From a virus (lineage: Duplodnaviria > Heunggongvirae > Uroviricota > Caudoviricetes), in IMG/VR virus record IMGVR_UViG_648028025_000017: a DNA stretch of 57,405 nucleotides, one strand, 5' to 3'. The position numbers and the translations under genes are program-made. Every line of letters begins with the position of its first letter. The stretch's first letter is position 1. Positions 1 to 44,426 of the stretch are shown piece after piece. The notes beneath the pieces were generated by a model. The model was not told where the DNA came from. It worked only from the letters and a program-made list of their open reading frames with translations, and did no database searches.

Positions 1-1158
1 ATGCTCACCGTTAAGCAGATTGAAGCAGCAAAGCCGAAAGAAAAACCATACCGCCTTCTCGATGGTAATGGCCTGTACCTTTATGTTCCTGTATCCGGGA
101 AAAAGGTATGGCAGCTTCGCTACAAGATTGACGGTAAGGAGAAAATCCTGACCGTCGGAAAATATCCGCTAATGACTTTGCAGGAGGCAAGGGATAAGGC
201 ATGGACTGCGAGGAAAGACATCTCGGTTGGCATCGATCCGGTAAAGGCGAAAAAGGCTTCGTCTAACAACAATTCCTTTAGTGCGATTTACAAGGAATGG
301 TACGAGCACAAGAAGCAAGTATGGTCAGTAGGGTATGCGACTGAACTTGCAAAAATGTTTGATGACGACATTTTGCCTATCATCGGCGGCCTTGAAATTC
401 AGGATATTGAGCCGATGCAACTGCTGGAAGTAATCCGCAGATTTGAAGATCGCGGTGCAATGGAGCGAGCAAATAAAGCCCGCAGAAGATGCGGCGAGGT
501 TTTCCGTTACGCTATTGTCACCGGCAGGGCTAAATATAACCCGGCACCTGACCTTGCTGACGCCATGAGGGGATACCGCAAGAAGAACTTCCCGTTTCTT
601 CCTGCAGACCAGATCCCGGCATTCAATAAAGCACTGGCAACATTTTCAGGAAGTATCGTATCGCTCATTGCCACCAAGGTTTTACGCTACACAGCCCTAA
701 GAACAAAAGAGCTTCGTTCCATGCAATGGAAGAACGTCGATTTTGAAAACAGGATTATCACCATTGACGCCAATGTGATGAAGGGACGCAAAATTCATGT
801 TGTCCCGATGTCGGACCAGGTGGTTGAACTTCTCACTACGTTAAGCTCCATCACCAAACCAGTATCAGAATTTGTTTTTGCCGGGCGCAACGATAAGAAG
901 AAGCCAATCTGCGAGAACGCGGTGCTACTTGTGATCAAACAAATCGGCTATGAGGGTCTGGAAAGCGGTCACGGATTCAGGCATGAATTCAGCACGATTA
1001 TGAACGAGCACGAATGGCCTGCTGACGCTATTGAAGTGCAACTGGCACATGCCAACGGCGGATCTGTGCGCGGTATTTACAACCATGCTCAGTATCTCGA
1101 TAAGCGCAGAGAAATGATGCAATGGTGGGCGGACTGGCTTGATGAAAAGGTGGAGTGA
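1..1158 (+). CDS. int: Tyrosine integrase, P4/CP4-57 type (prophage integrase; att/tRNA expected upstream, outside window)
   Basis: 385-aa ORF; N-terminal LTVKQIEAAKPKEKPYRLLDGNGLYLYV arm-binding motif typical of P4-family integrases; C-terminal GHGFRH...Y catalytic region. Confidence 0.9.
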   Translation: MLTVKQIEAAKPKEKPYRLLDGNGLYLYVPVSGKKVWQLRYKIDGKEKILTVGKYPLMTLQEARDKAWTARKDISVGIDPVKAKKASSNNNSFSAIYKEWYEHKKQVWSVGYATELAKMFDDDILPIIGGLEIQDIEPMQLLEVIRRFEDRGAMERANKARRRCGEVFRYAIVTGRAKYNPAPDLADAMRGYRKKNFPFLPADQIPAFNKALATFSGSIVSLIATKVLRYTALRTKELRSMQWKNVDFENRIITIDANVMKGRKIHVVPMSDQVVELLTTLSSITKPVSEFVFAGRNDKKKPICENAVLLVIKQIGYEGLESGHGFRHEFSTIMNEHEWPADAIEVQLAHANGGSVRGIYNHAQYLDKRREMMQWWADWLDEKVE

Positions 1159-1402
1159 ACCACCTTAACCACTATCGAAGTGCACAAAGCCTTGCAATCC
1201 AGTGCAAAGCTTGTGTGTCTTAGATTTCAGGGTTGCTTTCTTAGGCGTACAGGTTAATGAAATGCATCAAAATACCATTCACATCCACCTCACCCAGTAC
1301 TTCATAACCAACTGTTATCAGTGTATTTCCTCTCAGTTTGGTAAAGTGACAACCCTATGAGTACGAAATCGGTTAGGTGCTATCTGGCTATTGCTCTATT
1401 TA

Positions 1403-28999: not shown

Positions 29000-29817
29000 G
29001 CAATCCCCCTGTCTGCAAACTTCCCTTCCCGAACTCCCGTTAACGAGTCTTCCCTCAGCAGGTAATCAAAATCTGCCGTCCAGCCCGTGTCGTTGTCTCC
29101 GAAGTAAAACGGCTTGGCCTGATGCACAAACGCCCTGACATACGCTCTGAAACCGTCCACGTTTGGCGTTTTCAGTTGCGGGATGATTTTCTTCAGGCGG
29201 CGTTTTCGTTTCTCGTTGACCGCAACAGCGTGTGGAAGTCTGTCACCGACTTCGGTGTTGTAGGCGTTCAGGAAGGATTCGTAGTCGATTCGTTCTGCCT
29301 TGCGACGTTCAGGTTTAACCTGCCCATCGCCGCCCCCGTTAGGGGGTAAGGGGGTATTTGTATTTATTGTCTTTTGTATATTGTCTTTTGTGTTTAGCTG
29401 ACTTGGCTTATACCCATTAGCCGACTCGGCTAATGTTTTATTAGCTGTTTTAGCTAATGTTAAGCTGTCCTGGCTAATCCACTGAGAAACCACCTTGTTC
29501 ACTCCGATTTTCACGCCATCAGCAATGAGGAATTTACGCTCAATAAGCTGGCGCTTGGCAGCGCAAACATGAGTGTGATGAATACCTGTCATGGCTGCTA
29601 TCTGCGTGTTTGTGAGTCGATCCATCGGCTTATTGAATCCGTATGTCTTGCGCATGATAGCGAGCATCACCTTCATCTGCCGGACGGTTAAATCAGCCAT
29701 CAGCAGACTGTCGATAATCTCGTTAGCAACGCGCATGAAACCATCTTCGGTATCTGCCACGCGATGCTCCACGACCTCCAGTTGAGGCCTGTAATCAGCT
29801 AACTTAACGACGCCCAT
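28996..29817 (-). CDS. Replication initiation protein (lambda O / P22 gp18-like)
   Basis: 273 aa; iteron-like repeats inside the gene (ori). Confidence 0.8.
29340..29480. repeat. Putative replication origin: iterons plus AT-rich segment inside initiator gene
   Basis: G-rich CCGCCCCCGTTAGGGGGTAAGGGGG, direct repeat TATTGTCTTTTGT x2 (29365-29377, 29379-29391), GCTAAT motif x3. Confidence 0.5.
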
Positions 29818-30000: not shown

Positions 30001-30279
30001 TCAGGCCTCAAAACTGTTGCCGCAGTCTTGAGGCTTTTCTTTTGTCAGCACCATGGCTACTTTCTTTGCCAGCTCCGCTAATTCCTCGTCTTCAACACCC
30101 CACTCCAGCACAGCCAGAAGCATGGCCATCTTTGGGATAAAGCTGTCTTTCCATCGCGAAATTTGCGATTCATTGATCCCTAATGCATCAGCAACCTTTC
30201 GCTGACCACGTACAGCAATTCGATTCAGGATGTTGCTTGTAATTGCATTCGCTTTCTTGCGAGTACTTGTAAGTTCCAT
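30001..30279 (-). CDS. cII: CII transcriptional activator
   Basis: Start at MELTSTRKK with AAGGAAATA RBS; VADALGINESQISRWKDSFIPKMAMLLAVLEWGV close to recalled lambda CII. Confidence 0.8.
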   Translation of the reverse strand: MELTSTRKKANAITSNILNRIAVRGQRKVADALGINESQISRWKDSFIPKMAMLLAVLEWGVEDEELAELAKKVAMVLTKEKPQDCGNSFEA

Positions 30280-30336
30280 ATGTAAGTATTTCCTTAACAA
30301 ATAAGAAGTTATGCGCATCAACTTATGCGCGTTGTA

Positions 30337-30381
30337 TTCCCGCATTTCGGCGGGAATGAGGACCATGACTGTTAAAGAGCG
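30337..30381 (-). promoter_or_regulatory. nutR-like site (boxA CGCTCTTTAACA + boxB hairpin)
   Basis: On minus strand: CGCTCTTTAACA ... TCCCGCCGAAATGCGGGA, identical to the site upstream of N. Confidence 0.6.
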
Positions 30382-30388
30382 GTGTTAC

Positions 30389-30613
30389 TTATGCTGCCTG
30401 ATTCGGTTTTGGAAACAGGTGTGGCAAATCGGGGCGAATTTCGTAAGCCTTGATCTGCCCTCCAGTGGCGTTAACGATGGCGGTAACTTTCTCTGGAGAG
30501 ACCAACCCGCCTTTCAGCCATTTGTGTACTGCTGGCTGCGTTACACCACACTTGTCGGCAAGGCGCTTTTGGCTACCGACAATTTTCAAGGCTCGTTGAA
30601 TTACTAAATTCAT
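30389..30613 (-). CDS. cro: Cro-like repressor
   Basis: 74 aa from internal Met (AAGAGG RBS); HTH QKRLADKCGVTQPAVHKWLKG; divergent from cI across operators. Confidence 0.7.
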   Translation of the reverse strand: MNLVIQRALKIVGSQKRLADKCGVTQPAVHKWLKGGLVSPEKVTAIVNATGGQIKAYEIRPDLPHLFPKPNQAA

Positions 30614-30635
30614 GAGCATACCTCTTGTGGTCATT

Positions 30636-30712
30636 ACTTATAACCAAAGATAACTCAAGTTATAAAAAATAGCAATAACCTTTGTTATTTTACTTTGGAT
30701 AACCGTAGTTAT
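30636..30712. promoter_or_regulatory. OR operator region (three ATAAC-N4-GTTAT palindromes) with divergent promoters
   Basis: ATAACTCAAGTTAT (30650-30663), ATAACCTTTGTTAT (30675-30688), ATAACCGTAGTTAT (30699-30712). Confidence 0.7.
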
Positions 30713-30724
30713 AGATTTGTGGGT

Positions 30725-31432
30725 ATGAAAACATTCGCAGAAAGACTAAATGCAGCCATGAGCTCAGCAGGGGTATCACAATCACAGCTTGCTGACATGG
30801 TTGGAATATCTCAGCCAGCCATACAGAAGATGTCGTCCGGTAAAACAAACGGATCTCGCAAGATGGTTGAATTAGCCAATGCTTTAAAAGTGCGCCCTGA
30901 ATGGCTTAGTTCTGGTATTGGTGAAATGAGGGATGGTGCACATGAAGAACCATCCAATGTCCGTGATTCATCTTTAAAAGCTGTGGTATGGGAAGACATT
31001 AAAAGAAACGATGACGAGTTTGTTGCGTTGCCTCTTCTTAACGTTTCGCTTTCAGCTGGAAGCGGTAGCTGCGAGCTAGAGGAATCATCGGAGTTCTCTT
31101 TGGTTTTCAGAAAGCACTATCTGAAAAAGATGGGAGTATCTGAAAGATCAGCCAAGCTAGTTAGGGTTGTAGGGCAAAGCATGGAACCAACGCTTCACGA
31201 TGGCGATGTTGTTGGTGTTAACACGCAAGATACCACAATCAGAGATGGTAAAACCTACGCTATTTGCCAGTCTGATTTGTTACGAGTAAAAACATTAATC
31301 GCCACCCCTACATCGGTGATAATCAGATCAATAAATCGCGAAGAGTACCCGGATGAAGTAATGGATAGAGATGAATTTCATGAAACCGTAAGGATTATTG
31401 GCAGAGTATTCTGGTCGTCTCATAGTTGGTAA
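30725..31432 (+). CDS. cI: CI repressor (HTH + LexA/S24 peptidase-like C-terminal domain)
   Basis: HTH GVSQSQLADMVGISQPAIQKM; C-terminal GQSMEPTLHDGDVVGV autocleavage motif; start moved to Met downstream of operators. Confidence 0.85.
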   Translation: MKTFAERLNAAMSSAGVSQSQLADMVGISQPAIQKMSSGKTNGSRKMVELANALKVRPEWLSSGIGEMRDGAHEEPSNVRDSSLKAVVWEDIKRNDDEFVALPLLNVSLSAGSGSCELEESSEFSLVFRKHYLKKMGVSERSAKLVRVVGQSMEPTLHDGDVVGVNTQDTTIRDGKTYAICQSDLLRVKTLIATPTSVIIRSINREEYPDEVMDRDEFHETVRIIGRVFWSSHSW

Positions 31433-31472: not shown

Positions 31473-31769
31473 ATGGAATTTCTGATAGTTTTTGTTGTTG
31501 TTTTGGTCATCATTCTTTTTGTTTTGCTAAGCATTAGTAAAAAGCTATCTCAAATGATTGAACATAGCTCTAATCGTGCAAAAGAAGAAGAGCATATAAT
31601 TGATATAAAAGAGATTCTCTCTGATATAAAAATCACATTAGATGAAATAAAATACACAACAGATCTAATTGAACAGTATAAAATACCAACCCCAAACGAG
31701 AGAAAAGCAATAGATCAATATCGTATTGACTTAGAAATCGACGAAATGCTAAGCAAAAGAAAAGACTAA
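31473..31769 (+). CDS. Small single-pass membrane protein, cI-linked moron (rex/sieB position)
   Basis: 98 aa; N-terminal TM FLIVFVVVLVIILFVLLSI; very AT-rich; 40 bp downstream of cI, followed by terminator. Confidence 0.6.
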   Translation: MEFLIVFVVVLVIILFVLLSISKKLSQMIEHSSNRAKEEEHIIDIKEILSDIKITLDEIKYTTDLIEQYKIPTPNERKAIDQYRIDLEIDEMLSKRKD

Positions 31770-32202: not shown

Positions 32203-32475
32203 ATGACAGTAGTCATTACATATCTGGCTGACGATAACGCCAGAAATCGCCGCAGAGCACGCAGACAGGCTCAACGTGAACAGGCAATGCAAGAACAGCG
32301 ATTGGCACGAAAAATTGCGCTAAAGCTCTCTGGTTGCGTCAGAGCAGATAAAGCAGCATCACTCGGAAGCCTTCGCTGCAAGAAGGCAGATGAATGCAGT
32401 GGAAGTATTTGCCTGCCAAACGTAGCCATTTACGCGGCAGGCTACCGGAAATCAAAACAACTGACGGCGAGGTAA
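32203..32475 (+). CDS. N: N-like antitermination protein with arginine-rich motif
   Basis: 90 aa; DNARNRRRARRQAQREQ ARM; GGAGG RBS; first gene after pL/nutL. Confidence 0.65.
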   Translation: MTVVITYLADDNARNRRRARRQAQREQAMQEQRLARKIALKLSGCVRADKAASLGSLRCKKADECSGSICLPNVAIYAAGYRKSKQLTAR

Positions 32476-32477
32476 TT

Positions 32478-32840
32478 ATGGGTCAGGAAGAAAAATATGA
32501 GCTTAAAAAGCTCATTGGAGAAGACGCCATAGAAGAAATTGCAGCATTAACAACAGCTATAAAGAATATTAGGTATGCGCTAAATACGCTTATCTCCTCA
32601 TGCGACAAAAATAGCAGGGAATTTTTGATACTTGGCGCAGCTCTAGGAATAGTTGATGCGGCAACGCTTCACCTAATTACTCATGACGATATTCTTATTG
32701 AGCCGTATGAAACATTACTGCTTGTCAGGCAAAAAATGGCTGATGCCGCAGCAAATGGAGACCTTCAACTTTACATCGACTTAAGGAAAGTATTAAGGCG
32801 AATGGTCAAAACTGAAGGAGATATCCCCCTGACAAAGTAA
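32478..32840 (+). CDS. Hypothetical protein
   Basis: Start MGQEEKYELKK with GAGG RBS, 2 nt after N stop. Confidence 0.5.
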   Translation: MGQEEKYELKKLIGEDAIEEIAALTTAIKNIRYALNTLISSCDKNSREFLILGAALGIVDAATLHLITHDDILIEPYETLLLVRQKMADAAANGDLQLYIDLRKVLRRMVKTEGDIPLTK

Positions 32841-32870
32841 GGGGGTGAAGAGGCCATTTCAGGAATAAAA

Positions 32871-33365
32871 TTAATAATTTGTCAGCGGCGGTACATATAC
32901 AGGCTTAGGGTCTGGCGCTCTATACATCCGGTATTCATTCTTACAGCGAGGACATGAATGCACAAAGAACCCATTAGATTTTATAGTAACCGTGCTTGGT
33001 TGAAGTATCGATATTTTATGTTCGCCGAAGCAATGTGCACAAAGGTTATGCTGCTGAATAGAAGGATCGGAATGACTCTTAGGTCGATACACGACAGAAC
33101 CACCTTCAGTTGTATGAAGTTCATAATTCTCAGCTTGCACAACAAACATCTTGATTTTTCTATTTTCATCTCGAAGCTTCATTGCGATCTCCTTCTCGGC
33201 CTGATAAAGGCCAGAGAGCTCCGCATTAAGCATCTGTAAGTCAGTTATTCTTTGGTGTAGATCACCAATAGCTTTAGCGATAACAGCATCGTCTCTGGTT
33301 TCTTTTATTGTCTTCAGCAGATCATAAGCCTGTTTCGCGGCAGTTATACCAGATAACACATCCAT
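32871..33365 (-). CDS. Hypothetical coiled-coil / zinc-ribbon protein, oriented against the early-left operon
   Basis: 164 aa; N-terminal coiled coil; C-terminal C-x2-C ... C-x2-C (CAHCFGEH...CPRCKNEY); AT-rich. Confidence 0.6.
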   Translation of the reverse strand: MDVLSGITAAKQAYDLLKTIKETRDDAVIAKAIGDLHQRITDLQMLNAELSGLYQAEKEIAMKLRDENRKIKMFVVQAENYELHTTEGGSVVYRPKSHSDPSIQQHNLCAHCFGEHKISILQPSTVTIKSNGFFVHSCPRCKNEYRMYRAPDPKPVYVPPLTNY

Positions 33366-33565
33366 ATAAATTACTCTCTTACTGTAGGGGTAAGAGGATT
33401 TTACTATTTTTCTCGCTGTAGGGGTACACGAGAACCACCGAGCCTGATGTGGTTAAAAGACAGGCACAATCTTTACTACCGCAAGCCACGCAGTGAAATG
33501 GGTGTGACTTGTGTTGGTCGCCAGAAAATGAAATTAGACAGCAAACCACTTATTTGAGGTGAGAT

Positions 33566-34036
33566 ATGACAAAATCATGGAGCGTACCTTTTCCTGAATC
33601 AGAAACTGAACATGATGGAATGCCTGTTTTCTGGAGATTCCAGGCGACAGTTGAAGAAGATGGAATCAAAATATTCGCACTTCAATATATAGCTTTTCAT
33701 CAGACAGAGCATTATGCATGGTTGGTTCCTGCGCATTGGATTGTTAATTTTAAACCAGCACCAAATCAGTGGTTACAGGAATGGAAACAAAAGAGAAATA
33801 GATATGCAATTAAGAAAGTAGCAAAAAATGCAGAAAGATCTTTTGCATTCCCAACGAAGAAACTTGCTATTGAAAGTTTATTGCGCCGGAAGAAATACCA
33901 TTTAATGAGAATAAAACAAGATTTGGCTGTTGTATCAACTCTTGTTGATGGGATGAAAAATATTGATACATCAACACCAGATATTGAATATAACTTTGGA
34001 CACAACCAAGAAACAGAAAATTGGGTATTTTATTAG
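33566..34036 (+). CDS. Hypothetical protein
   Basis: 156-aa ORF with GAGG RBS. Confidence 0.55.
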   Translation: MTKSWSVPFPESETEHDGMPVFWRFQATVEEDGIKIFALQYIAFHQTEHYAWLVPAHWIVNFKPAPNQWLQEWKQKRNRYAIKKVAKNAERSFAFPTKKLAIESLLRRKKYHLMRIKQDLAVVSTLVDGMKNIDTSTPDIEYNFGHNQETENWVFY

Positions 34037-34179
34037 TACGAATAAGCACTGTGTATTCATTCCAACGAGTGAATACACGGAGCAATGTCGCTCGTAACTA
34101 AACAGGAGCCGACTTGTTCTGATTATTGGAAATCTTCTTTGCCCTCCAATGTGAGGGCGATTTTTTTGACGGAGGAAAT

Positions 34180-34491
34180 ATGAAATTACGTGTCTGGCAT
34201 ATCCCGCAAGTACCTATGAAACCGTTCATTGCAGAAGTGGCAAGTGTTGAAGAGGGTGTTCGCCTGATGGGCGCACTGGCTGATTATGACGCCTTTCAGT
34301 ATGACAACAACATCAAGCCTGATTACTGCAATGCTAACGGCCTTGAGATGTGGGATGAGAGCCTTACCGATGAAGATTTATCAGAGGTGGGGCTTACTGA
34401 TCGCTGGGTGGATTGGTACAGCGAATGCCAATGTTACGACGACCCACGTAAATATCTCGAAAGCCTGAAAGAAGAAACATCAGCCGCCTAA
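34180..34491 (+). CDS. Hypothetical acidic protein
   Basis: Start MKLRVWHIPQ with GGAGG RBS. Confidence 0.5.
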   Translation: MKLRVWHIPQVPMKPFIAEVASVEEGVRLMGALADYDAFQYDNNIKPDYCNANGLEMWDESLTDEDLSEVGLTDRWVDWYSECQCYDDPRKYLESLKEETSAA

Positions 34492-35094
34492 GCGCGGCTT
34501 TACCGCATACCAATAACGCTTCACTCGAGGCGTTTTCGTTATGCAATCAAATATAAGGAGTTACCCATGATGCACTTTCAGCTCGCGGGTAGCGGCGTCA
34601 TGTCCGCTTTCTACCCGCACGAATCTGAATTATCACGCCGAGTTAAACAATTAATTAGAGCAGCAAAGAAACAACTGGAGGCGTTATGCGCAATGAAATA
34701 GCCATTAATCACCAGATGCTTCGTGCGGCACAAAACAAAGCAGTAATAGCCAGATTTATTGGTGATTCAAAAATGTGGCTTGAAGCAAATAAAGCGATGA
34801 AATCAGCTATCAACCTTCCGTGGTATCGCAGGAAATGAGTTTCACAGATAACTGGTCAGACGAAGAATTCATTCGTCAGATGAAAGAATTAATCGGTAAC
34901 GAAGGAGATATTCATGTCACTTGCAACCACAGTGAAGGAGAGCAAGTTACAGAGACGCATGTACACGCAGCAGGCGTTAATGTATCGCCAGAAGGGAGAT
35001 CGTGAAGGTGTTCGCGTATTTTTAAATGCGGCAAAGACTGAAGTATTAAATCAGCGTTATTTCCTTGGGCCATGCCCATTCTGAGAACAAACAT

Positions 35095-35700
35095 ATGAGC
35101 AAAGACTTTTACGCAAGACTGGCAGCTATTCAGGAGAACTTGAACGCGCCAAAGAATCAGTACAACTCATTCGGTAAATATAAATACAGAAGCTGCGAAG
35201 ACATTCTTGAAGGCGTTAAGCCGTTACTGAATGGCCTGTTTTTATCAATCAGCGATGAAGTTGTGTTGATTGGTGATCGGTATTATGTGAAAGCCACGGC
35301 AACTATTACCGATGGCGAAAACAGTCATACGGCAACCGCTCTTGCACGAGAGGAAGAAAGCAAGAAAGGAATGGATTCTGCACAAGTTACGGGAGCTACA
35401 AGCTCTTATGCACGCAAGTATTGCCTCAATGGTTTGTTCGGCATTGATGATGCGAAAGATGCAGATACCGACGAGCATAAACATCAGCAGAACGCAGCAG
35501 CAAAGCAGTCAAAACCATCACCTACACCTGAACAGGTTCTAAAAGCATTCACTGACGCAGCATTGCAGAAAAACACCGTGGAAGAGCTTAAACAGGCGTT
35601 CGCCAAAGCGTGGAAGATGCTCGAAGGCACACCGGAGCAGCACAAAGCGCAGGACGTTTACAACATCAGACGAGACGAATTAGAAGGAGCTGCTGCTTAA
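35095..35700 (+). CDS. erf: Erf single-strand annealing protein
   Basis: MSKDFYARLAAIQENLNAPKNQYNSFGKYKYRSCEDILEGVKPLLNGLFLSISDEVVLIGDRYYVKATATITDGENSH matches recalled P22 Erf. Confidence 0.9.
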   Translation: MSKDFYARLAAIQENLNAPKNQYNSFGKYKYRSCEDILEGVKPLLNGLFLSISDEVVLIGDRYYVKATATITDGENSHTATALAREEESKKGMDSAQVTGATSSYARKYCLNGLFGIDDAKDADTDEHKHQQNAAAKQSKPSPTPEQVLKAFTDAALQKNTVEELKQAFAKAWKMLEGTPEQHKAQDVYNIRRDELEGAAA

Positions 35701-40214: not shown

Positions 40215-40415
40215 ATGCAACACGAACTACAACCTGATTCACTGGTTGATTTGAAATTCATCATGGCTGATACTGGCTTTGGTAAAACCTTCATCTACGA
40301 CCGGATTAAGTCCGGCGACCTGCCTAAAGCCAAAGTTATCCACGGTCGAGCAAGATGGTTATATCGTGACCATTGTGAATTCAAAAATAAGCTCTTAAGC
40401 CGCGCTAATGGGTAA
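40215..40415 (+). CDS. xis: AlpA-family excisionase / transcriptional regulator (Xis-like)
   Basis: 66 aa; LVDLKFIMADTGFGKTFIYDRIKSGDLPKAKVIHGRARWL fits AlpA pattern. Confidence 0.7.
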   Translation: MQHELQPDSLVDLKFIMADTGFGKTFIYDRIKSGDLPKAKVIHGRARWLYRDHCEFKNKLLSRANG

Positions 40416-40503: not shown

Positions 40504-40678
40504 TGCACACCTCTCCTGAAATCTACCATACCCCACAAAAAGCCTTTATAATCAGCACATACCCTTACTTATGTTACTCAAATAGTCGCCTTAATTCTCC
40601 TCAGGGGAACGTAAATCAAGTCACATTTGGGGGCCTATTTAGGGGCACATCTTGGTCAATCTATTGCGAGGCCCCCAG

Positions 40679-41869
40679 ATGCCACTGACAGCTCGACAAG
40701 TTGAAACAGCCAAACCCAAAGATAAAATTTATAAGATTGCCGATGGTGGTGGGCTCTACCTTCAGGTCAATCCTAACGGCTCAAAGTACTGGCGAATGAA
40801 GTACCACTATGCGGGGAAGGAAAAGAAACTATCATTTGGCACCTATCCAACTATTACATTGGCTGAAGCTCGCAAACGTCGGGATGAAGCCAAGAAAATA
40901 CATGCCGATGGTAAAGATCCCGGTGAAGTCAAGAAAGCTGAAAATCTTGAGAAAAACCTTTCCGAAGGAAGAACTTTTGCCGCAATCGCCACCGAGTGGT
41001 ACAACGCAAAAGTTTCAGGCTGGTCTGCCAGCTACGCTGATTATGTCGACAGAGCATTCAAAAATAATGTGTTTCCCTACATTGGAAACAGACCCATTAG
41101 TGAAATCGAACCTCTTGAACTTCTCGCAGTTCTTCAGCGTATCGAAAGCCGAGGAGCCTGCGAGCTAGCTAATAAAGTTCGCCAACGATGTGGTGAAGTG
41201 TTTCGGTATGCCATTGTTACAGGTCGGGCACGATACAATCCAGCTTCTGATCTGGTTATAGCAATGAAAAGCTATAAGCGAACACATTACCCTTTCCTGC
41301 TTCCTCCTGAACTACCAGAGTTTTTATACAAACTCGAAAACTAAACCGGCAGTATTGTAACCCGTGAAGCTACAAAATTGTTGATGCTCACAGGGCTGAG
41401 AACAGTAGAATTACGTATGGGGGAATGGTGTGAGATCGATTTTACCCAAAAGATATGGGAAGTTCCTCCGACCCGGATGAAAATGAGGAAGGAGCATATC
41501 GTCCCTCTGTCAGATCAGGCAATCCAGTCTCTGCAAATCCTCAAAGAACTGACTGGAAGATACAGATACATCTTTGCCGGAAGAAATGATGTTAACAGGC
41601 CTATCAGCGATGCAAGCGTCAATATGGTTTTGAAGAAGATTGGCTATGACAAAAAAGCTACCGGGCATGGATTTCGTCATACAATGAGTACTGTTCTACA
41701 CGAGCAAGGATTCAATAGTGCATGGATTGAAATGCAACTTGCACATACGGACAAAAACAGCATTCGTGGTACATACAACCATGCTCGTTACCTTGAAGGA
41801 AGACGAGAAATGATGCAATGGTACGCTGACTACCTTGATGCTCTTCGAAAAGAGTCACCAGCTATATAA
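40679..41869 (+). pseudogene. Second P4-type tyrosine integrase interrupted by an in-frame TAA (41342-41344)
   Basis: N-part ends ...FLYKLEN*, next codon in same frame continues TGSIVTREATKLLMLTGLRTVELR...HGFRH...Y; aligns collinearly with the integrase at 1-1158. Confidence 0.8.
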
Positions 41870-43286: not shown

Positions 43287-44130
43287 CTAAGCGAGATTAT
43301 GGTTTTCAAATTGTTCCGGGCTGAGACCGCCACAGGCACTGTGACGACGCCAGCGATTGTAATCACACTCGATATAATTAAACACCGTTGCCCGCATTAT
43401 TTCCCGGCTGCTAAAGCGTTCCCCGTGGATACATTCCACCTTCAGCGAATGAAAGAAGCTTTCCACACAGGCATTGTCATAACAGTAGCCTTTCGCACTC
43501 ATACTGCCACGCAGGTTGTGTCGCTTCAGCAGCGCCTGATAATCCCCTGAACAGTATTGACCACCACGGTCCGTATGAACAATGACGCTTTCCGGGCGTC
43601 TTCTCCGCCACAACGCCATTTGTAGTGCATCACAGGCCAGTTGTGCTGTCATTCGCGGTGACATCGACCAGCCAATGACGGCGCGTGACCACAGGTCGAT
43701 GACTACTGCGAGATACAACCAGCCCTCATCGGTACGCAAGTACGTGATGTCACCCGCCCACTTCTGGTTCGGGCCTCTGGCGCTGAAGTCCTGCTCCAGC
43801 AGATTCTCCAATACGGGCAGGCCATGTGCACGGTAGCTGACCGGGCTGAACTTTCGCCCGCAGCCCCTGACGACGCAGGCTGGCGGCAATGGTTTTAATA
43901 TTGAACTCCGGCAGTTCGTCAGCAAGGCGGGGAGCACCGTATCGCTGCTTTGCCTCAAAGAATGCCTTATGGACAGCGGCATCGCAGGTGAGCCGAAACT
44001 GTTGGCGAAGGCTCATCTGGTGACGACGCCTGAGCCAGACATACCAGCCGCTGCGGGCAACCCGAAGTACACGACACATCGCTTTGATGCAGAACTCTGC
44101 CCGATGATTTTCGATGAAGACATACTTCAT
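43287..44130 (-). pseudogene. IS3-family transposase OrfB, split by a frameshift
   Basis: N-part ([13 protein letters not shown]...LRRQGLRAK) and C-part ([15 protein letters not shown]...DDE region) lie in different frames. Confidence 0.75.
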
Positions 44131-44426
44131 TTCAGGCGATTCGCGAAGTATGTCGCGGCCTTTTGGAGGATGGCCAGTTCCTCAGCCTGCTCCGCCAGTT
44201 GTCGTTTAAGGCGGACATTTTCAGCGGCCAGTTCGCTTTCGCGCTCTGACGAACTCATTTGTTGCTGCTGTTTACTGCGCCAGGCATAAAGCTGAGATTC
44301 ATAAAGGCTGAGTTCACGGGCTGCGGCGGCCACACCGATGCGTTCAGCGAGTTTCAGGGCTTCGTTACGAAATTCAGGCGAATGTTGTTCACGGGGCTTC
44401 TTGCTGATTGATACTGGTTTTGTCAT
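44127..44426 (-). CDS. IS3-family transposase OrfA
   Basis: [50 protein letters not shown] matches recalled IS3 OrfA. Confidence 0.9.

What the first reader, a model, noticed from the sequence alone, without database searches (positions are those of the whole stretch)
32871..33426. Oppositely oriented zinc-ribbon/coiled-coil gene inside the early-left operon, with paired direct repeats upstream
Every other gene from N to xis is on the plus strand, but this 164-aa ORF is on the minus strand and AT-rich. It has an N-terminal coiled coil and a C-terminal C-x2-C ... C-x2-C zinc-ribbon. Its upstream region carries two copies of CTGTAGGGGTA (33,382-33,392 and 33,416-33,426), which may be a regulator-binding site or promoter element. 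An independently transcribed insert against operon polarity is a hallmark of morons, often anti-phage or anti-defence genes.
Basis: partly seen in the sequence, partly recalled or inferred. Interest (0 to 1): 0.5.

Follow-up and report, generated by a model that had tools for sequence, protein, structure and literature searches.

The report
Rip1-type phage defence gene with antisense RNA
The backwards-facing gene is a relative of Rip1, a recently described prophage protein that kills infected cells by forming pores around ring-shaped phage proteins. The "paired repeats" next to it are the two hairpin loops of a known antisense RNA (sas), so the locus is a new member of a known kind, wired in a way worth testing.

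Summary
A 164-aa ORF (32871-33365, minus strand) sits against the pL operon of a lambdoid Stx1a prophage, and CTGTAGGGGTA occurs at 33382-33392 and 33416-33426.

The protein is 99.4% identical to HK620 HkaP. It is homologous to Rip1 ("ring interacting pore 1"; PDB 9OOX, phage HK446): profile E=9.3e-18, hhalign probability 98.7%, Foldseek probability 1.0. All share PHROG 1244. HK446 Rip1 occupies the same slot, tail-to-tail after N, where lambda and P22 carry sieB.

The repeats are not primarily a protein operator. They are the loops of two hairpins in a homologue of the P22 antisense RNA sas, encoded on the pL (+) strand at 33370-33482. The 3' 74 nt match published P22 sas at 73/74. Comparative analysis supports both hairpin B and a 3' H-type pseudoknot, and an invariant TAnnnT -10 hexamer for the minus-strand gene lies between the hairpins.

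This ~110-nt module precedes SieB genes (86 loci), Rip1-like genes (38) or other small genes (3), so it acts as a swappable cassette.

Inferred mechanism: the lysogen makes the Rip1-like protein as an abortive-infection defence, and pL transcription yields sas, which shuts its translation off.

Verdict: new member of a known kind, moderate interest.

The parts
32871..33365 (-). Coding sequence of the 164-aa Rip1-family protein (HkaP allele): N-terminal long helices (residues 3-22 and 26-78), then a C-terminal beta-rich domain with CxxC...CxxC (C109, C112, C138, C141).
   Evidence: ORF. 99.4% identical to HK620 HkaP. Homology to PDB 9OOX Rip1. Fold match. Same PHROG 1244 as HK446 Rip1 and JBD30 gp30. 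Invariant cysteines.
33366..33391 (-). Predicted short 5' UTR of the Rip1-like mRNA (ACCCCUACAGUAAGAGAGUAAUUUAU, then AUG). It begins with the complement of repeat copy 1 and carries a weak GAGAG Shine-Dalgarno sequence.
   Evidence: Inferred from the position of the conserved -10 hexamer and the sequence. The transcription start was not measured.
33398..33403 (-). -10 hexamer TAAAAT of the sieB-type promoter that drives the minus-strand gene.
   Evidence: Positions T1, A2 and T6 are invariant in 35 distinct variants of the module, while the inner positions vary (TAAAAT, TAAACT, TATAAT, TAGCAT and others). These are invariant columns A29, T33 and A34 of alignment A2.
33421..33426 (-). -35 position (TACCCC, a poor match to TTGACA) at 17-bp spacing. 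It lies inside repeat copy 2.
   Evidence: Read directly from the sequence. The consensus scan finds no canonical promoter here.
33370..33482 (+). Homologue of the P22 antisense RNA sas. It is carried on the pL transcript strand, antisense to the 5' UTR and promoter region of the Rip1-like gene.
   Evidence: Covariance model hit at 33370-33477, 112.5 bits, E=1.4e-25. Window 33409-33482 is 73/74 identical to the 3' part of the published P22 sas RNA-seq sequence, and 88% over 115 aligned columns.
33375..33397 (+). sas hairpin A (stem UCUCUUACU/GGUAAGAGG in this allele). It contains repeat copy 1 (33382-33392) and is followed by a U-rich tract.
   Evidence: In other alleles the stem differs in sequence and register, but most still enclose CUGUAGGGG.
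33410..33434 (+). sas hairpin B: stem TTCTCG (33410-33415) / CGAGAA (33429-33434), with loop CUGUAGGGGUACA (33416-33428) carrying repeat copy 2.
   Evidence: Helix 1: 97.7% of cells paired, 2 of 6 pairs with changes on both sides, one-sided changes being G.U on this strand. Variants listed.
33435..33465 (+). H-type pseudoknot at the 3' end of sas: S1 CCAC (33435-33438) / GUGG (33449-33452); S2 GCCUG (33442-33446) / CAGGC (33461-33465); A-rich third loop.
   Evidence: the pseudoknot is recovered in 51 of 58 variants, mean score 28.8 against 5.4 +/- 9.0 for shuffles. S1, which was not part of the model, is 96% paired with 3 of 4 pairs compensatory; S2 is 99% paired with 2 of 5 compensatory.
33252..33275 (+). 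Equivalent of the terminator tL1 that the HK620 annotators placed inside hkaP on the pL strand.
   Evidence: Mapped from HK620 annotation L001 2353-2376 through 99.7% DNA identity. Not tested here.
32203..32475 (+). Antiterminator N. It defines the pL operon that reads antisense through the Rip1-like gene and into sas.
   Evidence: Pfam N_peptide, E=1.1e-15.
32478..32840 (+). hkaQ-like gene of unknown function, lying between N and the 3' end of the Rip1-like gene.
   Evidence: phrog_7374, matched from residue 29 of the longer ORF. HK620 hkaQ annotation.

Best explanation
The ORF encodes a Rip1-family anti-phage protein, the HkaP allele, carried as accessory cargo in the sieB slot of a lambdoid Stx1a prophage.

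Shown here:
- Homology and fold match to HK446 Rip1.
- The same genomic slot and orientation as HK446 Rip1.
- A comparatively supported -10 promoter element for the minus strand.

Inferred, by analogy with published Rip1 and P22 sieB/sas:
- In the lysogen pL is repressed, so the gene is transcribed from its own weak promoter and the protein accumulates in an inactive form.
- When a superinfecting phage makes a ring-shaped oligomer (small terminase or portal), the C-terminal zinc-ribbon domain docks around the ring.
- The N-terminal helices are thereby templated into a membrane pore, which kills the cell before progeny are released.
- When the resident phage, or a hetero-immune relative with the same module, transcribes pL, the transcript reads antisense through the gene and yields sas.
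- The sas loops (CUGUAGGGG) pair with the 5' end of the mRNA (ACCCCUACAG) next to the ribosome-binding site. This blocks new synthesis of the protein, as sas does for P22 SieB.
For: Protein homology and fold:
- Profile of 35 homologues against PDB 9OOX chain L (HK446 Rip1): E=9.3e-18. Single sequence: E=1.8e-10 over residues 3-146. hhalign probability 98.7%.
- AlphaFold2 model (pLDDT 87) against 9oox_M: Foldseek E=9e-7, probability 1.0, TM 0.72 normalised to the target.
- The window protein, HK446 Rip1 and P. aeruginosa JBD30 gp30 are all 164 aa. All match phrog_1244 end to end.
- They share Y81, the VYR-K motif, ILQ and four cysteines.

Genomic context:
- HK446 Rip1 lies tail-to-tail after N, opposite to pL.
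- JBD30 gp30 lies reversed between the small and large terminase genes, as the review describes for Pseudomonas Rip1.
- Lambda sieB occupies the same slot.

Antisense RNA:
- Published P22 sas sequence (PMC13397905) against the window: 73/74 identity.
- sas function is described in reviews PMC12197685 and PMC7067206.
- Structure covariation. Strand asymmetry: 17 G.U cells against 5 A.C cells.

Cassette behaviour and promoter:
- Cargo downstream of the module: 86 SieB-like, 38 Rip1-like, 3 other.
- The upstream module is nearly identical between this window and HK446, although the proteins are only 27% identical.
- The -10 hexamer TAnnnT is invariant.
Against: - No experiment on this allele is known to me. 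It is only 26-28% identical to the characterised Rip1 proteins, so its trigger specificity, and even pore formation, are extrapolated.
- The hydrophobic-moment test for an amphipathic N-terminal helix was not above shuffled controls. The same was true for HK446 Rip1 itself, so the test does not discriminate.
- Single-sequence folding energies of the sas region are not exceptional: z = -0.9 on the + strand and -1.0 on the - strand.
- sas regulation has been shown only for P22 sieB. There it acts with an internal Esc start, which is not conserved here.
- Some HkaP-type homologues (L007, L008) lack the sas module, so the coupling is not obligatory.
- I could not read the primary Rip1 paper (Patel et al. 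2026, Nature 651:1060). The mechanism is taken from a review and the PDB entry title.
- Antisense shut-off would not remove protein already present at induction.
Confidence: 0.72

Rival explanations
1. The paired repeats are DNA-level sites, either promoter elements or operators for a DNA-binding regulator of the minus-strand promoter. On this view the RNA structure is secondary.
For: - The distal copy overlaps the -35 position and the proximal copy the start region of the predicted transcript. They flank an invariant -10 hexamer.
- The -35 is poor (TACCCC), which would suit an activator-dependent promoter (one search finds no canonical promoter).
- Both copies change together in L009/L010, which is also what two sites for one protein would do.
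Against: - Each copy sits in the loop of a hairpin whose stem changes in a compensatory way. Many one-sided changes are G.U only on the + strand.
- The + strand segment is a detected RNA in P22.
- No candidate regulator is linked to the module, and the cargo varies.
- The two roles are not mutually exclusive.
Confidence: 0.15
2. The protein is a superinfection-exclusion factor of the SieB kind, as the HK620 record annotates it. It would abort infection by some mechanism unrelated to ring-templated pores, and its similarity to Rip1 would reflect only a shared scaffold.
For: - Same slot, orientation, promoter and antisense module as sieB in lambda and P22.
- The HK620 record calls hkaP a 'putative superinfection exclusion protein'.
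- Only 26-28% identity to characterised Rip1 proteins.
Against: - No match to Pfam SieB (PF14163), whereas the lambda- and P22-type cargo proteins match it at E=1e-29 and 3.9e-21.
- Full-length homology and fold match to Rip1.
- Read by eye, the sequence has no long hydrophobic stretch like those of the SieB-type cargo. No transmembrane prediction was run.
Confidence: 0.08
3. The protein is a nucleic-acid-binding zinc-ribbon regulator, or an anti-defence factor. On this view it is not a defence effector at all.
For: - A helical N-terminus plus CxxC...CxxC zinc ribbon is a common architecture of small regulators.
- A weak, sub-threshold Pfam hit to Zn_ribbon_SprT (E=0.014, 15.8 bits against a cut-off of 28.1).
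Against: - No family reaches threshold in Pfam, NCBIfam or PADLOC.
- The only significant structural and sequence relative is Rip1.
- Its placement in a slot otherwise filled by an exclusion gene argues for defence.
Confidence: 0.05

Closest known systems
Rip1 (ring interacting pore 1) of Escherichia phage HK446 (YP_007111990.1; PDB 9OOX, in complex with T6 small terminase) and of P. aeruginosa D3112/JBD-type prophages; Patel et al. 2026, Nature 651:1060
   Same: - 164 aa, and the same PHROG (1244).
- Same predicted fold: long N-terminal helices plus a C-terminal four-cysteine domain.
- Shares Y81, the VYR-K motif, ILQ and the four cysteines with both.
- Prophage-encoded and oriented against the surrounding operon.
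- HK446 Rip1 sits in the identical slot after N, behind a nearly identical ~105-nt upstream module.
   Different: - Only 27% (HK446) and 26% (JBD30 gp30) amino-acid identity.
- The stretch between the two cysteine pairs and the C-terminal tail differ, so the trigger may differ.
- No experimental data for this allele.
- In Pseudomonas phages the gene lies between the terminase genes and has no sas module.
HkaP of coliphage HK620 (NP_112049.1), also present in HK629 and HK630
   Same: 99.4% identical protein and 99.7% identical DNA, including the upstream module. Same position after N and hkaQ, on the opposite strand.
   Different: HK620 is a P22-like podovirus, while the window is an Stx1a-converting lambdoid prophage. 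HK620 lacks the next pL gene of the window (33566-34036). HkaP was annotated only as a 'putative superinfection exclusion protein'.
sieB / esc / sas of Salmonella phage P22 and sieB of lambda (Ranade & Poteete 1993; reviewed in PMC12197685)
   Same: - Same slot tail-to-tail with N (gene 24).
- Same promoter region.
- Same antisense RNA on the pL strand: 73/74 identity over the 3' 74 nt.
- Prophage-expressed abortive-infection cargo.
   Different: The cargo protein is unrelated: there is no SieB Pfam domain. No conserved internal Esc-like start was found. An AAGGAG-N7-ATG at M62 exists in this allele only.
RAZR (ring-activated zinc-finger RNase; Zhang et al. 2026, PMC13017515)
   Same: A conceptually similar single-protein defence with a zinc-finger domain, activated by assembling around large phage protein rings.
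   Different: The effector is an RNase, not a pore. No sequence or fold match was found: the PDB searches returned only Rip1.

Membership tests
Rip1 (ring interacting pore 1) | Significant full-length sequence homology to an experimentally characterised Rip1 | tested here: met
   9OOX chain L: phmmer E=1.8e-10; profile E=9.3e-18; hhalign probability 98.7% over 147 columns. tblastn also reaches JBD30, DMS3 and D3112 homologues at E about 4e-9. All fall in phrog_1244.
Rip1 (ring interacting pore 1) | Same fold: N-terminal helical region plus C-terminal ring-contacting domain | tested here: met
   The AF2 model (pLDDT 87) matches 9oox_M with Foldseek probability 1.0 and TM 0.72 (target) / 0.58 (query). 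The next-best hits have E about 1.
Rip1 (ring interacting pore 1) | Single small gene carried by a prophage and expressed independently of the surrounding lytic operon | tested here: met
   Opposite strand within pL operons in the window, HK620, HK446 and Salmonella/Pantoea/Yersinia prophages. Reversed between terS and terL in JBD30. Conserved -10 element. Expression itself was not measured.
Rip1 (ring interacting pore 1) | Amphipathic N-terminal helix able to line a membrane pore | tested here: inconclusive
   The maximum hydrophobic moment is 0.51 in residues 1-80, and 28% of shuffles reach it. HK446 Rip1 and JBD30 gp30 are equally unremarkable, so the test does not discriminate.
Rip1 (ring interacting pore 1) | Activation by oligomeric ring proteins (small terminase or portal), a 12-mer collar around the ring, membrane permeabilisation, and a phage-defence phenotype | not testable with these tools
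   Known only from a review of Patel et al. 2026 and the PDB title. Testing needs biochemistry and phage assays.
SieB superinfection exclusion protein (Pfam PF14163) | SieB domain | tested here: not met
   No PF14163 hit for the window protein. Lambda- and P22-type cargo proteins at the same slot hit it at E=1e-29 and 3.9e-21.
SieB superinfection exclusion protein (Pfam PF14163) | Location tail-to-tail after N, transcribed against pL from its own promoter | tested here: met
   Lambda sieB 34482-35036 (+) against N complement 35037-35438. The window ORF is in the equivalent place.
sas antisense RNA (P22) | Sequence homology to the published sas RNA | tested here: met
   Window 33409-33482 is 73/74 identical to the 3' part of P22A-sas, and 88% over 115 aligned columns.
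sas antisense RNA (P22) | Encoded on the pL strand, antisense to the translation-initiation region of the gene in the sieB slot | tested here: met
   The element lies at 33370-33482 (+), directly abutting the start codon at 33365 of the minus-strand ORF.
sas antisense RNA (P22) | Conserved RNA secondary structure on that strand | tested here: met
   97.7% of cells paired against 30-45% with slid partners. 7 of 15 pairs changed on both sides (0 of 500 shuffles reach this). Helix S1 was not in the model yet is 96% paired. G.U favours the + strand, 17 against 5. Caveat: two of the three helices were in the model used to align the sequences.
sas antisense RNA (P22) | Produced from the pL transcript and switching translation of the target | not testable with these tools
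   Needs RNA-seq or Northern blots of the induced lysogen, plus reporter assays.
Type III toxin-antitoxin (ToxIN-like: repeated RNA upstream of a toxin gene) | Tandem array of antitoxin RNA repeats on the toxin strand, processed by a ToxN-like endoribonuclease | tested here: not met
   Only two 9-11-nt motifs, 34 nt apart, sit in the loops of hairpins with different stems. Structure support is for the opposite strand. The protein shows no ToxN-like match in PADLOC, Pfam or PDB.

The most novel reading that the evidence does not exclude
The ~110-nt sas/PsieB module may be a general plug-in control unit for prophage abortive-infection cargo, not a peculiarity of P22 sieB.

- It pairs a weak constitutive promoter with a cis-antisense RNA made only when pL fires.
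- That RNA has two identical recognition loops, both able to pair with the mRNA's 5' end, and a 3' H-type pseudoknot. The pseudoknot has no Rfam family and, as far as I could check, no published description.
- The module is recombined precisely at the start codon onto unrelated killers: SieB, two deeply divergent Rip1 lineages, and at least two unknown small proteins.

If so, Rip1 in lambdoid phages is switched off by the phage's own early transcription. That would explain how a phage can carry a sensor for portal or terminase rings without killing itself.

A weaker extension: in this allele the internal AAGGAG-N7-AUG at M62 might give an Esc-like truncated protein, the ring-binding domain without the pore helices, acting as a dominant-negative inhibitor.
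Probability: 0.4. Interest if true: 0.6.

Novelty: new member of a known kind. Interest (0 to 1): 0.42.

Why it matters
- **Annotation gap.** The gene is labelled 'hypothetical protein' in RefSeq E. coli genomes, including O26 STEC strains. It has no Pfam, NCBIfam or PADLOC (2023) model. Naming it a Rip1-family defence gene fills that gap for Stx-converting prophages.
- **A testable self-immunity route.** Rip1 senses portal or small-terminase rings, which the carrier phage must also make. The locus links Rip1 to the 1993 sas antisense switch, suggesting how the phage avoids killing itself.
- **A defence hotspot marker.** The same ~110-nt module precedes unrelated cargo. It marks a small defence hotspot next to N in lambdoid phages and could be used to find further unknown exclusion genes. 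Two small candidates turned up here.
- **A candidate RNA family.** The sas RNA has good covariation support for two hairpins with matching loops and a pseudoknot, yet has no Rfam family.

Tried and rejected
Searches that gave nothing useful:
- Pfam, NCBIfam and PADLOC scans of the ORF gave nothing above threshold.
- Rfam at a permissive E-value found no family in 33200-33700.
- A literature search for 'hkaP' in 'anywhere' mode returned only unrelated hits such as SPHKAP.
- The primary Rip1 paper could not be read by DOI or PMID, and no preprint was found.
- The guessed PMC id for the 1993 J. Bacteriol. sieB paper is not held. What I say about the sieB promoter in that paper is from memory.
- The genome-contig scan returned only 6 loci. 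Diverged loci were collected instead with the look-up of encoding contigs and a DNA pattern scan.

Tests that did not discriminate:
- Hydrophobic moment of the N-terminal helices.
- Minimum free energy z-scores of the sas region, not significant on either strand.
- The consensus promoter scan finds no canonical sigma-70 promoter for the minus strand. The promoter call rests on comparative conservation of TAnnnT.

Ideas considered and rejected or downgraded:
- A type III toxin-antitoxin reading of the repeats (see the membership test).
- A structured 5' leader or riboswitch on the mRNA strand. The predicted transcript starts inside hairpin A, and G.U pairs favour the other strand.
- An Esc-like internal start. 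A good ribosome-binding site precedes M62 in this allele, but it is not conserved in six related loci.
- The 56-aa ORF at 33379-33549 (-) overlaps the RNA element and is taken to be spurious.
Full report
**Setting**

The window is a lambdoid Stx1a-converting prophage. Region 32400-34100 is 100% identical to LC744178.1. The immunity region reads:
- cII 30001-30366 (-)
- cro 30389-30634 (-)
- cI 30695-31432 (+)
- N 32203-32475 (+; Pfam N_peptide, E=1.1e-15)

The pL operon therefore runs on the + strand, through xis (40215-40415) to a split int gene.

**The observation**

The 164-aa ORF at 32871-33365 (-) is real, and so are the two CTGTAGGGGTA copies at 33382-33392 and 33416-33426.

The window holds five local direct repeats of at least 11 nt, against 0.65 expected by chance. 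The repeat is therefore suggestive rather than decisive on its own.

The ORF is 41.4% GC. That is below the window mean of 46.6% but not below its neighbours.

**What the protein is**

Curated libraries give nothing: Pfam, NCBIfam and PADLOC have no hit above threshold. PHROGs places it in phrog_1244, 'unknown function'.

The DNA is 99.7% identical to coliphage HK620. There the gene is hkaP, also on the strand opposite to pL, and noted as a 'putative superinfection exclusion protein'.

The large protein collection yields 34 clusters, all from Enterobacterales. Invariant residues include C109, C112, C138 and C141. A profile search over 1.84 billion representatives finds 2,132 relatives at E<=1e-3, mostly 140-180 aa.

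The decisive result is the search of solved structures. The profile hits 9OOX chain L, 'ring interacting pore 1 (Rip1)', at E=9.3e-18. The single sequence hits it at E=1.8e-10 over residues 3-146. 9OOX is the cryo-EM structure of phage HK446 Rip1 bound to the T6 small terminase.

Supporting results:
- The AlphaFold2 model has mean pLDDT 87, with helices 3-22 and 26-78 followed by a beta-rich domain.
- It matches 9oox_M with Foldseek probability 1.0 and TM 0.72. Nothing else scores better than E about 1.
- hhalign gives probability 98.7%.
- The window protein, HK446 Rip1 and JBD30 gp30 are each 164 aa and all match phrog_1244 end to end.
- They share Y81, the VYR-K motif, ILQ and the four cysteines, at 26-27% identity.

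**What Rip1 does, from the literature**

I could not open the primary paper (Patel et al. 2026, Nature 651:1060). A review (PMC13434031) summarises it as follows:
- Rip1 is a prophage-encoded single-protein defence.
- It is not toxic on its own.
- Escape mutants map to the portal in Pseudomonas phages and to the small terminase in E. coli phages.
- Twelve Rip1 monomers form a ring around an 11-mer small terminase ring.
- The N-terminal part is an amphipathic helix, and the C-terminal half contacts the ring.
- The complex forms a pore that releases dye from liposomes and lyses the infected cell prematurely.

A meeting report agrees.

**Genomic context**

HK446 Rip1 (F846_gp37) lies immediately after N on the opposite strand. 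Its own record calls it 'similar to HK620p16'.

JBD30 gp30 lies reversed between the small and large terminase genes. That is the position the review gives for Pseudomonas Rip1.

In Salmonella and Pantoea prophages (L012-L016), HkaP-type genes again sit tail-to-tail with N or an N-position gene. In L011 the gene lies next to the repressor gene, with no N gene called.

In lambda this slot holds sieB: 34482-35036 (+), against N at complement 35037-35438.

The gene is therefore accessory cargo in the classical sieB slot. Only 65 of 5,426 complete E. coli genomes carry the ORF plus its upstream region, among them several O26 strains. RefSeq labels it 'hypothetical protein'.

**The repeats**

I compared 220 nt upstream of the start codon across diverged loci. 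About 105 nt are conserved even where the coding sequence is not. The HK446 module is almost identical to the window's, although the two proteins are only 27% identical.

Across 127 true loci, the gene that follows is:
- SieB-like in 86 (Pfam PF14163, E=1e-29 and 3.9e-21 for the lambda and P22 types)
- Rip1-like in 38
- other small proteins in 3

The module therefore belongs to the slot, not to the cargo, and the junction lies at the start codon.

Literature on this slot describes sas, an antisense RNA of P22 that pairs with sieB mRNA and switches its translation (PMC12197685 and PMC7067206).

A 2026 RNA-seq paper prints the P22 sas sequence (PMC13397905, Table 2). Window + strand 33409-33482 is identical to its 3' 74 nt at 73 positions, and the whole alignment is 88% identical over 115 columns.

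**Structure of the RNA**

In 58 distinct variants, each motif lies in a hairpin loop.
- Hairpin B (TTCTCG/CGAGAA in the window) has compensated variants: TTCTCC/GGAGGA, TTCTCTCT/AGAGGGAA, CTCGCT/AGCGGG.
- It also has variants that pair only through G.U on the + strand: TTCTCG/TGAGAA, CTTGCT/GGCGGG.

Downstream, two interleaved stems form an H-type pseudoknot.
- S1 is AACCAC/GTGGTT. Variants: CCACG/CGTGG, TCACG/CGTGA, AACCTCA/TGAGGTT, GACTACC/GGTAGTT.
- S2 is GCCTG/CAGGC. Variants: GCCGGG/CCCGGC, GCCTGA/TCAGGC, CGCCTG/CAGGCG, ACCCGG/CCGGGT.
- The mean pseudoknot score is 28.8, against 5.4 +/- 9.0 for shuffles.

I built a covariance model containing hairpin B and S2 only. It finds the element in the window at 33370-33477 (+), upstream of lambda sieB, and in two loci that were not selected by the pattern (L009, L010).

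On the resulting alignment:
- 97.7% of cells pair, against 30-45% when partners are slid.
- 7 of 15 pairs change on both sides, which 0 of 500 shuffles reach.
- Helix S1, which was not in the model, is 96% paired, with 3 of 4 pairs compensatory.

G.U cells on the + strand outnumber A.C cells by 17 to 5. This agrees with sas being the structured strand.

Caveats:
- Two of the three helices were part of the model used to align the sequences.
- Many sequences are closely related.
- Single-sequence folding energies are unremarkable.
- Rfam has no family for this RNA.

In L009/L010 both loops read UUGUUGGGG instead of CUGUAGGGG. The two copies are therefore kept alike.

**Promoter**

Between the hairpins, the minus strand reads TAAAAT at 33403-33398. 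Across 35 distinct variants the first, second and sixth positions are invariant while the inner ones vary. That is the signature of a sigma-70 -10 hexamer.

At 17-bp spacing, the -35 position is TACCCC, which lies inside the distal repeat and is a poor match. The proximal repeat covers about +1 to +10 of the predicted transcript.

The mRNA would begin ACCCCUACAG, complementary to both sas loops, with a 26-nt leader and a weak GAGAG ribosome-binding site. The start site is inferred, not measured.

**Proposed mechanism**

Shown: homology, fold, slot, promoter element, and the sas homologue with its structure.

Inferred:
- In the lysogen, the Rip1-like protein is made from its own promoter and stays inert.
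- A superinfecting phage's small terminase or portal ring templates the protein into a pore, and the cell dies before releasing progeny.
- When pL fires, N-modified transcription passes tL1 inside the gene (HK620 annotation), reads antisense through the ORF and produces sas.
- sas pairs with the mRNA leader and stops new synthesis.
- This may be how a phage that must itself build portal and terminase rings tolerates carrying such a sensor. Protein made before induction would remain, so insensitivity of the phage's own rings may also be needed.

**Limits**

- This allele has no experimental data that I could find.
- Its trigger is unknown.
- The amphipathicity test was uninformative.
- sas control has been shown only for P22 sieB.
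- Two HkaP-type homologues outside this slot lack the module (L007, L008).

**Verdict**

The gene is a new, untested member of the Rip1 family, sitting behind a known antisense RNA. The anti-phage 'moron' reading is supported. The repeats are reinterpreted as RNA loops that also straddle the promoter. The coupling of Rip1 to sas, and the cassette behaviour of the module, are the parts worth an experiment.

Noticed in passing
L009 2704-2810 and L010 2704-2810 (Shigella flexneri and E. coli chromosomes): A variant of the sas module in which both hairpin loops read TTGTTGGGG instead of CTGTAGGGG. The two copies have changed together, which suggests both recognise the same partner. The linked cargo is a distant (31% identical) Rip1-like gene.
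   Followed up: partly
L017 about 1140-1390 (+) and L100; L116 (minus strand), all downstream of the sas module: Two other cargo types follow the same module in place of sieB or rip1. One is an 80-83-aa protein (MDLEMDIPDMVFPISLTHPIK...). The other is a 105-aa protein with hydrophobic stretches (MDSILSKLALDAWYKVFIWIG...). Neither has a Pfam hit. They are candidate unknown exclusion genes.
   Followed up: partly
window 31473-31769 (+): A 98-aa ORF directly after cI, in the position of lambda rexAB. It has a hydrophobic N-terminal segment and matches only phrog_18389 (unknown function). It may be a second prophage-expressed accessory gene.
   Followed up: no
window 40652-41344 and 41378-41869 (+); 43287-44426 (-): The integrase reading frame appears split into two ORFs of 230 and 163 aa. 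Just beyond lie two overlapping minus-strand ORFs that look like an IS3-family transposase pair. The prophage end may be damaged.
   Followed up: no
window 29365-29393 (+): A 13-nt direct repeat, TATTGTCTTTTGT, recurs 14 nt apart to the left of cII, where a lambdoid replication gene and its origin iterons would be expected.
   Followed up: no
window 33173-33188 (-), upstream of codon M62 of the ORF: A strong internal ribosome-binding site, AAGGAG-N7-ATG, precedes M62 in this allele. It is not conserved in six related loci. It recalls the internal Esc start of P22 sieB, but the evidence is weak.
   Followed up: partly
L012 2244-2813, L014 2303-2812, L016 2197-2772: In Salmonella and Pantoea prophages, the first pL-strand gene beyond the sas module is a pentapeptide-repeat protein of about 170-190 aa. 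The window has an unrelated gene there (33566-34036, phrog_1636).
   Followed up: no
window 33252-33275 (+): HK620's annotators placed the pL terminator tL1 inside the hkaP coding sequence. The identical sequence is present in the window, so unmodified pL transcripts may stop before reaching sas.
   Followed up: no
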